Below, piece by piece: positions 28,401 to 49,400 of a stretch of DNA of 64,000 bases (the stretch's first letter is position 1; each line of letters starts with the position of its first letter). The translations under genes were made by a program, and so were the position numbers. The notes under the pieces were generated by a model that was not told the origin of the DNA, did not search any database, and saw nothing but the letters and a program-made list of their open reading frames with translations. The stretch is from Prorocentrum cordatum (Eukaryota), in the NCBI GenBank assembly GCA_963575745.1, contig CAUYUJ010000005.1:1-64000 (forward strand), written 5' to 3'.

Positions 28401-31400
28401 CCGCGGGCTGCGGGAAGGGCGTGGCGTGGGTAAGGGAAAATGGAAGTTCGGGGCCGCGGGCGTCGGTTCGGGCCGCTGGGGTAATCCCGCGGCCCTTGCG
28501 GGGTGCGTCTCAAATTCCGCGAGTGCGACCCCGAGGAGCACCTCGTGCGCGTCTGCCCCTGGCGCCGCCGACCGGGGCGAGCTCTCTTCCTCGCTGCCTG
28601 CGCCCTGGCACCGTTGGCATTATCATCCTCGCCGCTTGCTTCTCTGGGGCAGCGAGGGCCGCCCTGGCCGGCCGAGCAGCGGCCCGTGCCGGGGGCGCGC
28701 GCGGTCTGGATGACCAGGGGCGCCTCCGGGTCTCTTCGGCCCGTGGCCGGGGGGCCGGGAACGGTGATCCTTGGGGCGGCCCTTGGAACGGCGGTCGGCC
28801 GATTCCTTCGCCGCCCGCGCCGCGGCCGTCAGCGGCGGCGGCTGCTCCGAGTCCTTCGTCGGGCGGGCTCGCGGCCGCCGACCGGCCGCAACCGCTGGTC
28901 AACATGGGCGGGGCCTGTGTCGGCCGCGCGCCCGCGCGCCGGCCAGCGCCCGCGAGCGCTGGCTTGACCTGGGGCGCCGCGTCGCTCCAGCGATCAGCGA
29001 GCTCAGCTACCCGGCGGCGCAGACCTTTGCGCGACAGACGAGGCTGCTCTACCGCCCGCGCCCGCAGGAAGGTCAGGGGCCATCTCATCATCCAGCGCTG
29101 GAGCTCAGGGTATTGGTTCGGGCGACTGCGTCGCCCGAACGGGGGTCCGAGCTCAGGGCAATGGTTCGGGCCGCTGTGTCGCTCGACCAGGGGCCCGAGC
29201 TAGTCCAGCATCGGGCGCAGAGCCTCGTTTGGCAGCGCCTTGGGCGAGTTGTCGTCGCAGCTGCAGGCGTGCCGGCGCCCCCAGACTGGACTCGCTTCGA
29301 CGCCGCTCTCCCCTTGCGAGCATTCCGCAGTGATTCGCGCGAAACACGCGCGCGGGCGATGCGCATGCTACACATCTGGTGGTGGCACGCCACCGAGGAG
29401 GAGATGGCGCGAGCACGACGAGCAGCCAACGTGCCACAGGACATTTTCATTTTTCCCACGGTGGTCAACGATTGCACGGGGCGTGGCCAGCGGCTACCGC
29501 GAGCGCGCCTAACCAACCCCAACGCTCCGCCTTTCGACGCGATTCAACCAGCGCGTCGAGTGCGACATCCTTCTTTGAAAGGATCGCATGATCGTCCGCA
29601 TGATCTGTTCCACCTCGCGGTGGCACAATGGTCAGGATGTGCCGTCCGAGCAAGACTTAACGCTGCTCGCTGCAGTCGACCGTTCATGGATCCAGCTGTT
29701 CGGCTCGATGAAGTCTTTGGTCGTGGACGTCGAGGGCGGGGTGGCCCCAGCAAGTTGTTGGAGGAGATCAAGGGGATAGGAGTGCAAGTTGACAGACGTG
29801 CTCCGCGCCAGCGCGCTCGCTTCGTCGAGCGGCGCGCTGCGACGAGCACTTCGCGCCGCGGAGGAGCAGCTGAAACGCGCGGGCATCGCTGCAAACGTTT
29901 GCTCCATGCTAGCGCATTCCATGTTAGCGGACGACAGCCTCGCCCGCATGGGCGGCGTGGTGCCATGCCACGTCGTCTTCGGACGGCAGCTGTCCATGCT
30001 GTCGCCGCTTCAAGCAGACGACCAGGGTGATTTCTGCGCTTGCGTCGCTGCTGCCGAGCCTCCTGCTGGTGGGGAAGTGCTGCCCAGCCAACTGCAGTGG
30101 CGTGTCCGAGAGATAGCCCTGCAACGCATGCTCGAAGCCGCGTCGACCGCGCGCGTTAACCGCGCCCTCAGGGCCCGCGCCGTCGAGTCTGGGCAGTCCG
30201 GCCAGGTGGAGATTCACGGGCCGCCAATCACCGAAGATGTGGCAGGCTTGGCGGGCCTTGGGACAGTCATGTCTGCGGGCCCGGCTCGAGGCAAGGTGGC
30301 GGTCAAATGCCGCCAAGCCAAGGCGGTCTGCGATTTGCAGGGCGTTCGGGCTTTCATCGGTGCCGTCTTCGACGAGATGGGCACCGACATGGCGCGAGCA
30401 CGTTTGGGCCGGAACTTGGAGGTCTACCTGGGGCGCGTTGCGCCAGGCTCCGGGGCCGGGGCCTTCGGCCGCTGGGAGGGCACCAAGGCTGGCAAGGCAC
30501 GGACTTACGGTCTCACGTACCCTCTTCCTACAAAACCCAATCACACACCTCCCTCCCGCATACAGACACGACTATCCATGACTATAGCAAACGCAGCATG
30601 ATGACGATGTAAATAAAAAGTTGCGGCAAGCGCGTCGTACGCGTTTACGCAGCGCGCGTTCCTTGCGCATGCAGTGCGTTCAGCGCGTCGTACTCTCGCG
30701 TTCGCGCGACCAAAGTTCAGCGAAATATTGCAGGCGCGCGTCGCCGCGCGCCCTGCCGATGCTCGCGGCGCTTCGTCGCGCGCGCGCGAATGCGACGCAT
30801 CGAGGCGCGCGTTCGACTTCAAACCGCGCCTTGCGCATATGCGTTCGACGTGCTTTCTCGTTTGGCGTGTCATCGTCGGGTATTTCTTGCTGAAGTTCCA
30901 ACAGTAACAGCAAGGGTGCCCGACGACGCTTCAAACGGTAGAACGCGTTGAACACGTGTGCGCCCAACGCGCGCCGTTGCGAACCGCGCGGCGTTGCGTC
31001 GTTTTCGCTCGTTCGCCCCAAGTAGCGAAGCTGGCAACCGCGCTCGGTTGCACCGCGTAGCGAGCGCTACGTTTCGCGCGGTCGGCGCATCCAACTACAA
31101 GGCCCCCAGCGAGCCTCGGGCGCCCGCGGGGCGCGGCGGATTTATCACAGCTCGCGCGCTGAGAAGCCCATGCGGGGATGGCGGATACGTTGGTCTTTGC
31201 GTCTTGGGGGGGTTCTTTGGGTACTTGGGGGTCTCTTTGGGGAGGTTTTGGGAGCTTGACTTTGGGCGAAGGCGTTTCTAGGAGAGCGTGGGCCCCAGAC
31301 AGTGAATCAAACGCGCAGAAACAACATGCTCTGGTAGGCCAAATACTTGAAACACAACACCATAATTAACACAGACACTTGCGGCATGACACGAAGTGCA

Positions 31401-46400: not shown

Positions 46401-49400
46401 TCGCGTGAGCTCGTTGTCCAAAGGCGAGCTCGAGAAGATCGGCCCCGCCAAGGTGGATGAAGTTCCATCTCTCGAGGAGGCGCTAACGACCATCCAGAAC
46501 CAGAAGTCCACGTTCTTCGAGCAGGTGCAAACTCTCACGGGTCAGCTGCATTTCAAGCTCCAGAAGTCTTGCTCTGAACAGAGGTCCGAATGCCAGAAGA
46601 ACCGCTGGGAGAAGACGAAGGCCCAACATATGCTCAGCAAAGGAGGCTTTGGCCTGAACTTGTCCAAGTGGGCGTCGGAGCAGATCCACAGCACGGCTAG
46701 TTTCAGGCGTGATCTGTTTGTGTGAGAAGGCGCAGCTCAACCCCGAGGACGGTTCCTTCGACGTGGCCAAGCTGGCTCTCTTCACGGGCGAGAGCCCCAA
46801 CGAAGACTGCCAGTCGCATGCTGCATGGTGGGCCATGAAGCTGCTGCTGGACGATGCCGCGAATGTCTTCATCGACAGCAAGATCACGAGCATGAAGGCT
46901 GAGATGGCCAACCACCCGCTGTGGCCAGGTGCGATGGGGAGGGTGCCAGGTTGCTTCGCAAACGTCGACGCGGTCGCCACCTTGTGCGCGCAGAACACTA
47001 AGGAGAAGGGCTCGGAGTGCTGGCTTCTGTGTTCGAGAGCTGGCGTCTATCGCATTGGTCCTCAGAGCGTGCCCATGCCAGGCACGCCATCGATCATTGT
47101 CGCCATGGACAAGCCGCTCTTGGTCCACGCCGTGCGCATGAAGGACTTCTTGAGCCAGGGCATCGCCGTGAACAACTACGAGCAGTTCCTCGCGACAGCG
47201 ACGGGAGCAGACGTCATCAAGCAATCAGCGTTGGTGATCGTCAACCCAGGGGACAGCTTGTACGTTCCCACGGCGTGGTGGTGGTCCTTGACGGTGCTCG
47301 CGGGGCTCCGCGACACGGTTGCACAAGACGAGCCGAGGGCGACAGGGCCACCGAAGGCGAAGGCGAAGACTTCCGCGACGGCTCCAGCTCCAGGTCAGGA
47401 CACGGTCGGCATGGCCACGGTGGTGCCAGTCTACTCCCCGTCGCTTTGGGGCACGCCCAGAGCAATGAGCAGGGAGCGATCGTCGCTCTGAACAGGGCCC
47501 ACTTCGACACGAAGAAGGGTCGGGCGATGCGGGATGAGCGTGCCACGGCATCCGGGAAAATGTTTGCCACCTAGTCGGGGAGATGGAGCTTCGAACCTAA
47601 CGAGGCCCATGGCTGCGCGCTCCGGGTCAACGCGTGGCGGTCCCAGCTGGTGGCGCGGAGATAGATGCGAGGCCCTTGCAAGCTCAGGATGGAGTGTTCC
47701 ATCAGACCTGGGCGCCCGAGATCCGTTCATCAGGGCGATCGCCGTGGCATTTCATTCATTACCCTCCCCACCTCATCATGCCAATGTGTTGTTGCATATG
47801 TGGAGCTCCGCTCTATGCACCCTGATGTTTATAATATCTGGATCTTCGCTCTCTGCACCCTGATGTTTACTATTCCCAGAGCTTCGCTCTCAGCGCGCCT
47901 GGTGTTAAGTATATCTGGGGCTTCACTCTGTAAAGCTTGATTGCATGTCGAATGGTATTCTGGTGCGCCATGCCATTCGACATCCATGTGACGGGTTGTT
48001 GGGTCCGCATGGCCTTTCAGGGGCGCCTTCGGGGCCCGCGCCCTCGCGGGCAAGGGATGGGGCGGGAGGGCGGGCGCGATATAAGACAACTACGTTGGGA
48101 TCTGGGGAGGCAGGGGGCGAGGGGTACAGAGGGGCACGGGGTAGAAGGTCGGAAGAACGAACGAGGACGGGGGCGTGATATTTGGGCGGGAGGGCGGAAC
48201 GATCGCCCGTAGGACGTGCGCTGGAGGCGCGGGGATGGCGGGGGAGGGCGGTCGCGCGGGAGGGGGGCGCGCAGCCGTCACTGACGGCTGTCGTGATCGA
48301 GTTCGGCTTTGCCACTGCGGCGTCCGAGCCGTTTGCTGGGCGAACCGCCCGCGTGCACTCATGGTCCAGCGACGCGCCCGTCGCGCGGAACGAGCGGCCA
48401 GATGCCGTGGCCGCGTCGCAACGCATGGCCGTCGTTCACGCGCCGCGGGCGCATTGGCGGACTTTGGGTGCGAGCGCGGGGCACGTCCAGCAAACGACGC
48501 ACGTGCCGAGGTGGCGGCGCCAGACTCGATCGCGAGTGCTGAAAGTGAATGCTGTCCTGCGTGGCGCGCTTGAGGGTGCTTACGTTGACAACGCGGCCGC
48601 GCTGCGCGTCCCATTAGAGCGCGCTATCGCGAGCGCGGGCCTGCGTCAGAAGGCGTTCGGATGTTCGATGCGCTGATCTTGGCGTTACGGGTTCGTTCGC
48701 CTCGCCGCGCAATCGCAAATTGACGACTCGTTCGGTCGTTCGGGCGTGGGCGCGCGATGCGTGCGCGTCACCACTTGCGATTAGCATTGCGTCGGCGCGT
48801 GCGCTATTCGATGTAAACGTGAATGAAATAAAACATAGAAATGACAACGAACACACCGCCGAACTATGCGGCTTGGCAGTGTGTTACCCTTTTCTGTAGA
48901 AGTTACATGATGTGTTGAGCGTTTCTGTAGCAGATGGTTGCTTGCCAGCGCTTTGACCGTAAGTCCGCGCCTTGCCAACCAAGGCCGCGCATCTCACCGG
49001 GCAGGCGCGACAGCGCCCCGACGTCCTCGAAGGCCTGCGCCGTCCTTCCCGCAGATACTTAGAGCTGCCAGACGTTCGCGCTGTACGACTCTCTCGCCGA
49101 CAGAATCTGTGGGCAACCGGCCAGGCTGCGCCCGCAGCCTGGGCGTCTGATGGGTCCCTCGGAGCCCTGCCGACGTCCAGCAGATCCACCTCGGCGTCGT
49201 CGCGTTCGACGCCCGCTAGTTCATCGGCGAGCATTGGAAGGGAGCTCGCGTCATCCAGTTTCTCTTTGGTGATGAGCCGTCATTGCTGTCAGATTCCGGA
49301 CAGGGCGTGGGCAGAACGTTCGATGATTGTGTCATCGACTTTCCCGAGGACGCCGCCAGCACCATCGAAGGTGGATCGCCGCCGGCCCTGTCGGCTATGC

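What the first reader, a model, noticed from the sequence alone, without database searches (positions are those of the whole stretch)
30482..48985. Giant (18.5 kb) two-gene hAT-like transposon carrying an internal structured array
Seen: 23-bp TIRs (22/23 identical) and a perfect 8-bp TSD (ACCAAGGC) delimit 18,488 bp. Inside are, in order, a ~4-kb DDE transposase-like gene, two blocks of a 129-bp array and a ~2.2-kb intronless second gene. Both genes are on the + strand. Known: 8-bp TSDs with short TIRs typify hAT (and P) elements, which are usually a few kb with one gene. Inference: this is an unusually large cargo-bearing family in which transposase, accessory chromatin-type protein and cis array may form one functional module.
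Basis: partly seen in the sequence, partly recalled or inferred. Interest (0 to 1): 0.9.

Follow-up and report, generated by a model that had tools for sequence, protein, structure and literature searches.

The report
Decayed giant hAT-like transposon, dinoflagellate-type
This is a real 18.5-kb cut-and-paste DNA transposon whose transposase belongs to a large, unannotated family that folds like the hAT enzyme Hermes, but this copy is mutationally dead, and the roles of its second gene and repeat arrays remain untested.

Summary
23-bp inverted ends (22/23) and a perfect 8-bp duplication (ACCAAGGC) bound 18,488 bp. Inside, all on the + strand, are a ~4.1-kb transposase-like gene, two blocks of one 129-bp repeat and a ~2.2-kb second gene.

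"hAT-like" is supported by fold, not by sequence. Pfam finds nothing. The gene's family has 1,104 clusters at E<=0.001. Its nearest named relatives are unnamed Prorocentrum/Polarella (dinoflagellate) proteins. A confident AlphaFold model of one homologue matches only Hermes strongly (Z 18-19, ~390 residues), with invariant D, D, E, GWxH and WRW motifs.

This copy is dead. The transposase reading frame has 5 frameshifts and 2 stop codons. ORF2 has a 17-nt and a 1-nt deletion.

Contigs from two other public runs carry relatives of nearly every part at ~94-97% identity, and their homology stops exactly at each terminus. So the ends are real, and the gene-array-gene layout is probably a family trait.

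The "chromatin-type" (JmjC/cupin) reading of ORF2 is only a weak lead. The "functional module" idea is untested.

Verdict: a new, deep hAT-like lineage of a known kind, of moderate interest.

The parts
30482..30489 (.). Left copy of the 8-bp target-site duplication ACCAAGGC
   Evidence: Read directly. Identical to 48978-48985.
30490..30512 (+). Left 23-bp terminal inverted repeat TGGCAAGGCACGGACTTACGGTC
   Evidence: The homology of an X2 metagenome contig starts exactly at 30490 (record 9).
30513..31535 (+). 5' subterminal non-coding region, GC 0.585 for 30490-31535
   Evidence: No homologue mapped here. No enriched subterminal motif beyond CG-rich words.
31536..35600 (+). Transposase-like gene of the Hermes-fold family; a pseudogene in this copy. 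Frameshifts lie at ~31871, ~32386, ~33149-33151, 34316-34319 and ~34576-34585. In-frame stops lie at 32408-32410 and 33922-33924. A ~188-nt intron or insertion with a GGA microsatellite lies at 34648-34835.
   Evidence: tblastn of homologues P0013, P0019, P0151 and P0152. DNA at the breaks. The D, D and E motifs are retained ([22 protein letters not shown]).
35601..36434 (.). Spacer between the transposase gene and array 1
   Evidence: An X1 contig spans 34939-36058 across the gene end (record 4).
36435..39009 (+). Array block 1 of the 129-bp unit (TRF core 36522-38682, 16.8 copies, 71% matches)
   Evidence: It holds 62 exact TGAACYAC motifs, all on the + strand.
39010..40071 (.). GC-rich (0.697) unique segment between the two array blocks. 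It contains a poly-G run at about 39668-39686.
   Evidence: An X2 contig spans 39956-40222 across its junction with array 2 (record 14).
40072..42951 (+). Array block 2 of the same 129-bp unit (TRF core 40119-42846, 21.4 copies, 74% matches)
   Evidence: It holds 87 exact TGAACYAC motifs, all on the + strand. The consensus aligns with that of block 1 over the whole unit.
42952..45336 (.). Spacer between array 2 and ORF2
   Evidence: X1 contigs span 42816-43419 and 45317-45942 (records 5 and 6). No Pfam hit on its ORFs.
45337..47574 (+). ORF2, about 745 codons. It has an N-terminal Cys/His motif, a long central region and a C-terminal possibly cupin/JmjC-like region. In this copy it is broken by a 17-nt deletion near 46705 and a 1-nt deletion near 47453.
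   Evidence: Homologues P0155, P0156 and P0157 map in frames 1/2/1. The X1 copy has +17 nt at 46705 and +1 nt at 47453 (table 4).
47796..47906 (.). 38-bp tandem repeat (about 2-2.7 copies) in the 3' subterminal region
48955..48977 (-). Right 23-bp terminal inverted repeat (one mismatch to the left one)
   Evidence: The homology of an X1 contig ends exactly at 48977 and then runs on for 94 unlike letters (record 8).
48978..48985 (.). Right copy of the 8-bp target-site duplication ACCAAGGC

Best explanation
The interval 30490-48977 is one copy of a large class II (cut-and-paste) DNA transposon in a GC-rich, repeat-rich eukaryotic genome. The genome is most likely a dinoflagellate's. The first gene encodes a ~1,300-residue DDE transposase of an unannotated family. 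Its catalytic core has the hAT (Hermes) architecture: an RNase H-like fold with D on strand 1 and D after strand 4, then a ~290-residue all-helical insertion domain, then E on the following helix.

Inferred mechanism: like hAT elements, an intact family member's transposase binds the 23-bp ends, excises the element and re-inserts it with an 8-bp staggered cut. That cut produced the ACCAAGGC duplication.

This particular copy cannot make its own proteins, because both genes are broken. It is a dead or at best trans-mobilisable copy.

The second gene and the two blocks of a 129-bp array are most likely standing internal parts of this family rather than later insertions into this copy. Each array unit carries eight same-strand TGAACYAC motifs spaced 10-11 bp apart. 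What the second gene and the arrays do is not shown. My best guess is that ORF2 is an accessory DNA/chromatin-directed protein and that the array is a selfishly expanded non-coding repeat.
For: Shown, boundaries:
- TIRs 22/23 and TSD 8/8.
- The TIR pattern is found only at these 2 sites, with 0 expected.
- In other runs, contig homology starts exactly at 30490 (X2 record 9). It ends exactly at 48977 with 94 unlike letters beyond (X1 record 8).

Shown, family:
- The 253-aa piece 32411-33172 hits 1,104 cluster representatives at E<=0.001 and 110 at E<=1e-30. Many are ~1,300 aa.
- The nearest named relative is an unnamed Prorocentrum cordatum/Polarella glacialis protein, 74% identical.

Shown, fold:
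- The AF2 model of homologue P0007 (41% identical to the window piece) has pLDDT 87 and pTM 0.71.
- Foldseek ranks 1-10 are all Hermes chains, best E 1.8e-6.
- The VIA second look gives Z 19.2, rmsd 4.3, 383 aligned, model 284-783 against Hermes 141-609.
- The search of 48,161 chains that does not rely on Foldseek gives Hermes Z 18.1, next the P element at 8.6.
- D328, D403, G449-W450-x-H452 and W518-R519-W520 are in 36 of 36 sequences. E747 is in 32 of the 33 that cover it.

Shown, decay: for the transposase gene; for ORF2.

Supporting a family-level layout:
- X1 covers 30 of 30 bins of the laid stretch and X2 covers 27 of 30.
- The listed pieces over the ends, transposase gene, mid segment, array edge and ORF2 are all ~94-97% identical.
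Against: - No sequence method links the family to hAT. Pfam gave 0 relevant hits in 18 window ORF pieces, in 10 full-length homologues and in 36 members even at E<=10. A family HMM found no Hermes chain among PDB sequences at E<=10.
- The terminus TGGCA does not fit the usual hAT YARNG. That consensus is recalled, not from a call.
- The fold evidence comes from a homologue, not from the broken window gene itself.
- Physical linkage of all parts in another copy was not shown. The contigs are short, and array repeats make the joints ambiguous.
- None of 20 metagenome loci with transposase relatives held an ORF2 relative. These contigs were at most 7.5 kb.
- Three of the five frameshifts are homopolymer-length changes and could be assembly errors.
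Confidence: 0.75

Rival explanations
1. It is a transposon, but ORF2 and/or the arrays are passengers. They would be captured host DNA, or a nested insertion in an ancestor of this sub-family, with no role in transposition. The 'two-gene module' would then be an accident of history.
For: - The array motif TGAACYAC occurs 149 times, but only inside the arrays. It is absent from the 1-1.4 kb next to each end, where transposase-binding repeats would be expected.
- No ORF2 relative was found in 20 loci that encode distant transposase relatives.
- ORF2 relatives P0155-P0157 are only 38-41% identical to the window's ORF2, whereas a 74-92% identical transposase relative exists.
- Array units are 26-29% diverged from each other. 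This is typical of drifting satellite-like DNA.
Against: - In two other runs the relatives of ORF2, the array edges, the mid segment and the ends all show the same ~94-97% identity as the transposase gene. So at least this sub-family carries them as a unit.
- No TIR/TSD pair brackets ORF2 or the arrays.
- Both genes share the same strand.
Confidence: 0.3
2. The transposase belongs to another 8-bp-TSD superfamily for which no structure is solved (Zisupton/KDZ, Novosib), or to a MULE- or P-like group. On this reading it resembles Hermes only because all these share the RNase H core with an inserted helical domain.
For: - No hAT sequence signature was found.
- The protein is about twice the length of typical hAT transposases. 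It has a ~210-residue alpha/beta N-terminal domain and a ~450-residue C-terminal extension.
- Zisupton also makes 8-bp TSDs (PMC12730594, passages read).
- No solved KDZ, Novosib or eukaryotic MULE structure appeared for comparison.
Against: - Hermes stands alone at Z 18-19 with ~390 aligned residues. The match covers the core, the insertion domain and the C-terminal part up to Hermes residue 609.
- The P element reaches only Z 8.6, an IS256-family transposase 7.6, and Transib/RAG1 5.8-5.9.
- No Pfam KDZ, MULE or P-element model matched any of 36 members at E<=10.
Confidence: 0.12
3. It is not a mobile element. The inverted 23-mers and 8-bp repeats would be chance or a local rearrangement around a resident gene cluster.
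For: Only one complete copy could be inspected. No whole genome is held for this window.
Against: - The TIR pattern has 0 expected chance matches.
- The 8/8 flanking repeat abuts both TIRs exactly.
- Homology in other runs breaks exactly at both termini, with unlike flanks.
- The gene family has over a thousand diverged clusters, as transposases do.
Confidence: 0.02

Closest known systems
hAT superfamily (Hermes, hobo, Ac, Tol2, Buster); the solved example is Hermes transposase
   Same: - 8-bp TSD and short (23-bp) TIRs.
- DDE RNase H core split by a large all-helical insertion domain.
- Hermes is the only strong structural match: Z 18-19, ~390 residues, model 276-783 against Hermes 133-609.
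- An invariant H after the second D, and an invariant R-W at the start of the insertion domain. These resemble the hAT CxxH and RW motifs; that resemblance is recalled, not tested.
   Different: - No Pfam hAT dimerisation domain, BED finger or any hAT-related profile hit.
- No HMM match to Hermes.
- The terminus TGGCA is not YARNG.
- The protein is ~1,300 aa with extra N- and C-terminal domains.
- The element is 18.5 kb with a second gene and 5.4 kb of arrays.
- No subterminal short repeats were detected.
Fungal two-gene DNA transposons that carry a TET/JBP dioxygenase (hAT7, Dileera/Zisupton/Kyakuja and others; PMC12730594, passages read)
   Same: - A cut-and-paste element, in some lineages hAT, that carries a second protein gene beside the transposase.
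- If ORF2 is cupin/JmjC-like, both accessory proteins would have the double-stranded beta-helix dioxygenase fold.
   Different: - ORF2 shows no detectable TET/JBP or JmjC match above any threshold.
- Its metal-binding residues were not identified.
- The host is a dinoflagellate-type genome, not a fungus.
- hAT7 makes 7-bp TSDs; this element makes 8-bp TSDs.
DNA transposons with internal tandem arrays that seed satellite DNA (known from the literature; recalled, not read here)
   Same: Long internal head-to-tail arrays sit between the ends of a TIR element. The units are far more diverged from each other (26-29%) than the two TIRs are.
   Different: Here the unit is itself built of eight phased 10-11-bp sub-motifs, all in one orientation. 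The array is split into two blocks by a 1.06-kb GC-rich segment.

Membership tests
hAT superfamily | 8-bp target-site duplication | tested here: met
   ACCAAGGC at 30482-30489 and 48978-48985, 8/8 identical. Only one insertion was seen.
hAT superfamily | Short terminal inverted repeats (roughly 10-30 bp) | tested here: met
   23 bp, 22/23 identical. Similarity stops at base 23.
hAT superfamily | Terminal consensus 5'-YARNG (recalled from the literature) | tested here: not met
   The terminus reads TGGCA.
hAT superfamily | DDE RNase H-like core interrupted by a large all-alpha insertion domain, as in Hermes | tested here: met
   Tested on the AF2 model of homologue P0007 (pLDDT 87). Hermes scores Z 19.2, rmsd 4.3, 383 aligned; the next family (P element) scores Z 8.6. 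D328 lies on strand 322-333, D403 follows strand 397-402, and E747 lies in helix 744-759. The window's own gene is broken and was not modelled.
hAT superfamily | C-terminal hAT dimerisation domain (Pfam PF05699) | tested here: inconclusive
   No Pfam hit in 18 window pieces, 10 homologues, or 36 members at E<=10. The structural alignment does run to Hermes residue 609 of its C-terminal part.
hAT superfamily | N-terminal BED-type zinc finger DNA-binding domain | tested here: not met
   No BED hit in Pfam. The model's first ~210 residues form an alpha/beta domain instead. That domain was not searched on its own.
hAT superfamily | Detectable sequence homology to hAT transposases | tested here: not met
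   The family HMM against all PDB sequences at E<=10 gave 2 unrelated hits and no Hermes.
KDZ (Kyakuja-Dileera-Zisupton) | Match to the Pfam KDZ transposase model and associated CxC clusters | tested here: not met
   0 of 36 members at E<=10. HMMER filters drop many weak hits. The 8-bp TSD is shared with Zisupton.
P element superfamily | Fold like Drosophila P transposase, with THAP domain and GTP-binding insertion | tested here: inconclusive
   Z 8.6, rmsd 8.5, 360 aligned, far below Hermes. No THAP or P-element Pfam hit.
JmjC / cupin dioxygenases (for ORF2) | Double-stranded beta-helix domain recognised by JmjC or Cupin_8 profiles, with an HxD/E...H metal triad | tested here: inconclusive
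   - Cupin_8 E 0.0087 and 16.4 bits against a cut-off of 27.4, on window 46724-47446. JmjC_2 E 0.11 on P0155.
- Atlas feature score 0.86, and TM by target 0.51-0.55 to Cupin_8 clusters. Both are below the tool's bars.
- UniRef calls P0157 'JmjC domain-containing protein'.
- The AF2 model is unusable at pLDDT 37.
- The PDB HMM search found nothing.
- The metal triad was not identified in alignment A3.

The most novel reading that the evidence does not exclude
The ~1,300-aa proteins define a previously unclassified, deep-branching sister lineage of hAT that is abundant in dinoflagellates and other marine protists. Its autonomous elements would be obligate multi-part units: a Hermes-fold transposase, a JmjC/cupin-like accessory protein that acts on DNA or DNA-packaging proteins, and a phased 10-11-bp motif array that serves as that protein's binding platform. 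This would parallel the TET/JBP-carrying transposons of fungi. Such a family could also be the unknown autonomous partner of some TIR-type non-autonomous elements, including intron-generating ones, in dinoflagellate genomes.
Probability: 0.15. Interest if true: 0.75.

Novelty: new variant of a known kind. Interest (0 to 1): 0.5.

Why it matters
DNA transposons of dinoflagellates are barely described. A 2024 review of dinoflagellate genomics contains neither 'transposase' nor 'hAT' (find). A 2025 survey of intron-generating transposons lists most elements as unclassified (passages).

This finding gives complete boundaries (TIR and TSD) and a fold-level classification for a protein family that has 1,104 clusters at E<=0.001 and no Pfam coverage.

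If the second gene and the array prove to be standing parts of the family, it would be another case of a cut-and-paste element carrying a possible chromatin- or DNA-modifying accessory gene. The hosts would be organisms with highly unusual chromatin.

As it stands, the copy in the window is a dead relic. The result is a useful annotation and a lead, not a new mechanism.

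Tried and rejected
- Pfam on 18 ORF pieces of the element gave nothing at E<=0.01.
- Pfam on 29 flanking ORFs gave only sub-threshold low-complexity hits.
- The whole genome is not held, so no genome-wide TIR census was possible.
- Cluster names could not be looked up because the database was switched off.
- No RNA holder was listed for the stretch. Expression and splicing could therefore not be examined.
- Runs X3 and X4 laid only on low-complexity stretches: the poly-G run and the GGA repeat.
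- An X1 joint 30385->49119 (2 contigs, side 22) does not fit the TSD positions. I did not take it as an empty site.
- Array-to-array joints in X1 are ambiguous because the units repeat.
- The family HMM against PDB sequences gave no transposase. The ORF2 HMM against PDB gave nothing relevant.
- AF2 of the ORF2 C-terminal piece gave pLDDT 37, so I did not search with it.
- The metagenome scan found 20 loci with transposase relatives (34-41% identity). None had an ORF2 relative, a TIR-like sequence, or an inverted repeat with an 8-bp TSD. Contigs were 1.1-7.5 kb.
- Viral contigs held no relative of either gene.
- Rfam and tRNA scans of the window gave 0 hits.
- No subterminal repeat motif was found beyond CG-rich words.
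- The N-terminal (~210 aa) and C-terminal (~450 aa) domains of the transposase family were not searched on their own.
- This scan's earlier findings held nothing on this genome or on this sequence.
- Literature searches found no description of this family. The original Zisupton paper is not in the library.

Full report
**Observation**

The left end reads ...GC ACCAAGGC | TGGCAAGGCACGGACTTACGGTC..., with the TSD at 30482-30489 and the TIR at 30490-30512. The right end reads ...GACCGTAAGTCCGCGCCTTGCCA | ACCAAGGC..., with the TIR at 48955-48977 and the TSD at 48978-48985.

The arms agree at 22 of 23 positions, and their similarity stops exactly after base 23. The element is 18,488 bp long. With up to 3 mismatches the TIR pattern occurs only at these two places in the window. 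100 shuffles gave none.

TRF reports a 129-bp period at 36522-38682 (16.8 copies, 71% matches) and at 40119-42846 (21.4 copies, 74%), with 258- and 387-bp higher orders. Degenerate units extend the two blocks to about 36435-39009 and 40072-42951.

**The first gene**

Pfam finds nothing in 18 ORF pieces of the element. I searched the piece 32411-33172 (253 aa) with HMMER against 1.84 billion cluster representatives. It found 1,104 proteins at E<=0.001, 486 at E<=1e-10 and 110 at E<=1e-30. Many are about 1,300 aa, with the match near residues 300-545.

The nearest named relative (74% identity) is an 'unnamed protein product' of Prorocentrum cordatum / Polarella glacialis. The host is therefore most likely a dinoflagellate.

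Ten full-length homologues have no Pfam domain at E<=0.01. Neither do 36 aligned members at E<=10. A family HMM finds no transposase among PDB sequences at E<=10.

**Fold of the family**

I modelled homologue P0007 (906 aa) with a 36-sequence alignment. P0007 is 41% identical to the window piece. The model has mean pLDDT 87 and pTM 0.71.

- Foldseek against the PDB gives 12 matches at E<=0.001. Ranks 1-10 are all Hermes chains, best E 1.8e-6.
- The VIA second look gives Hermes Z 19.2, rmsd 4.3 A, 383 aligned, model 284-783 against Hermes 141-609. The P element follows at Z 8.6, Transib at 5.9 and RAG1 at 5.8.
- The search of 48,161 representative chains that does not use Foldseek gives the same picture. 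Hermes scores Z 18.1, and only 4 chains reach Z>=8.

In the alignment, D328, D403, G449-W450-x-H452 and W518-R519-W520 are invariant in 36 of 36 sequences. E747 is present in 32 of the 33 that cover it.

By the model's secondary structure, D328 lies on the first core strand, D403 lies just after the fourth, residues ~450-740 are all-helical, and E747 sits on the next helix. That is the hAT arrangement.

The window keeps the corresponding motifs: [26 protein letters not shown] and NVNESP.

**State of this copy**

tblastn of the homologues maps the gene to 31536-35600. The frame changes where the homologue coordinates are contiguous, so these are frameshifts and not introns. They lie at:

- ~31871, an extra base in a T-rich run;
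- ~32386, A6 where A5 would keep the frame;
- ~33149-33151, GGG where GGGG would;
- 34316-34319, TTTT where TTT would;
- ~34576-34585, a deletion between short direct repeats.

In-frame stops lie at 32408-32410, where relatives have G or R, and at 33922-33924, where P0152 has L.

About 188 nt at 34648-34835 contain a GGA microsatellite and are skipped in relatives. This stretch may be an intron or an insertion.

ORF2 (45337-47574) maps to homologues in frames 1, 2 and 1. At exactly those places the X1 copy has 17 extra bases (46705) and one extra base (47453). At 34316 it has one base fewer (table 4).

Three of the transposase frameshifts are homopolymer changes and could be assembly errors. 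The stops and the longer deletions cannot be. The copy is non-autonomous.

**Other copies**

No genome is held. I therefore laid Logan contigs of four coded runs on 29800-49700.

- X1 covers 30 of 30 bins and X2, a metagenome from another study, covers 27 of 30.
- The listed pieces over the left end, transposase gene, mid segment/array 2 junction, array 2/spacer junction, ORF2 and right end are ~94-97% identical to the window.
- An X2 contig's homology begins exactly at 30490. An X1 contig's homology ends exactly at 48977 and then continues for 94 unlike letters.

This confirms both termini in independent data. It also makes it likely that the gene-array-gene layout is shared by this sub-family. 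Because the contigs are short, full linkage is not shown.

Twenty metagenome loci encode more distant relatives (34-41% identity) on contigs of at most 7.5 kb. None shows an ORF2 relative or recognisable ends. That is uninformative rather than negative.

**ORF2**

Its relatives are P0155 (751 aa), P0156 and P0157, at 38-41% identity to the window pieces. All share three regions:

- an N-terminal C-x2-C...KKWHGY-FHASPCW motif;
- a long central region;
- a conserved C-terminal region ending in GD-x-x-YVP-x-x-W-x-W.

Hints of a cupin/JmjC fold are all sub-threshold:

- Pfam Cupin_8 at E 0.0087, 16.4 bits against a cut-off of 27.4;
- Atlas feature score 0.86 and TM 0.51-0.55 to Cupin_8 clusters;
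- a UniRef name for P0157.

My AF2 model of the window's C-terminal piece was unusable at pLDDT 37. An HMM search of PDB sequences found nothing. 'Chromatin-type' is therefore a lead, at about even odds for the fold. No catalytic residues were identified.

**The arrays**

Each 129-bp unit contains eight TGAACYAC motifs in two clusters of four, 10-11 bp apart. The clusters are separated by a ~12-bp and a ~36-bp spacer. The two blocks share the unit.

There are 149 exact motifs. All are on the + strand and all lie inside the arrays. None lies elsewhere in the element or the window.

The units differ from each other far more than the TIRs do, so the arrays are old. The motif is absent from the subterminal regions, and no other subterminal repeat stands out. 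That argues against the arrays being ordinary transposase-binding sites. Whether they bind ORF2 protein is open.

**Comparison and verdict**

By TSD length, TIR length and protein architecture, this element works like a hAT element. By sequence criteria it is not a recognisable hAT member:

- no hAT dimerisation or BED profile;
- no HMM link to Hermes;
- a TGGCA terminus.

The protein is also about twice the usual size. KDZ/Zisupton shares the 8-bp TSD (PMC12730594, passages), but its Pfam models do not match.

Two-gene DNA transposons with a dioxygenase partner are known in fungi, including hAT lineages (same paper).

My literature searches found no description of this family. A 2024 dinoflagellate genomics review does not contain the words 'transposase' or 'hAT'.

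I file it as a new, deep variant of a known kind. The boundaries are well supported and the fold assignment is good. This copy is dead, and the 'functional module' idea is unproven.

Noticed in passing
window 29780-30489 joined in frame with 48986-49445: With the element and one TSD copy removed, a 389-codon stop-free frame runs across the insertion site on the + strand (236 codons to the left, 153 to the right). The insertion may have split a coding exon or another repeat. The left half (29780-30601) gave no Pfam hit; the right half was not scanned. Long open frames are common in DNA this GC-rich.
   Followed up: partly
window 52279-54158 and 9947-10211: A ~90-bp tandem repeat family (CCCCATAGGGAGCTCCACCGAAGGCCCCAGCGGCAGGGTCCGCATGGCG...). 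About 20 units lie downstream of the element and 3 related units lie 42 kb upstream (families D17 and D20).
   Followed up: no
window ~950-2750, 6400-7300, 14800-15100, 21100-23000, 23900-25000, 54800-55200: Long blocks of 3-, 7-, 8-, 9-, 14- and 16/22-bp simple repeats (GGGAGGC-like, GTA/GTC-like, CCT-like). The region is very repeat-rich, and no clear gene was found by Pfam in 29 flanking ORFs.
   Followed up: partly
window 34762-34796: A GGA/GGAGG microsatellite sits inside the transposase gene's skipped ~188-nt stretch. Contigs of X1, X2 and X4 lie on it with loose ends on both sides, so it is a common low-complexity word rather than evidence of copies (table 7).
   Followed up: no
window 39668-39686: A poly-G run of about 19 bases in the GC-rich segment between the two array blocks. 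It explains the depth spike in all four runs in bin 39096-39759.
   Followed up: yes
L003, L006, L009, L010, L011 (metagenome loci): Distant relatives of the transposase gene in AT-richer contigs (GC 0.42-0.45) are split by gaps of ~600-700 nt between homologous blocks. These look like introns. The family therefore also occurs in organisms of quite different base composition.
   Followed up: no
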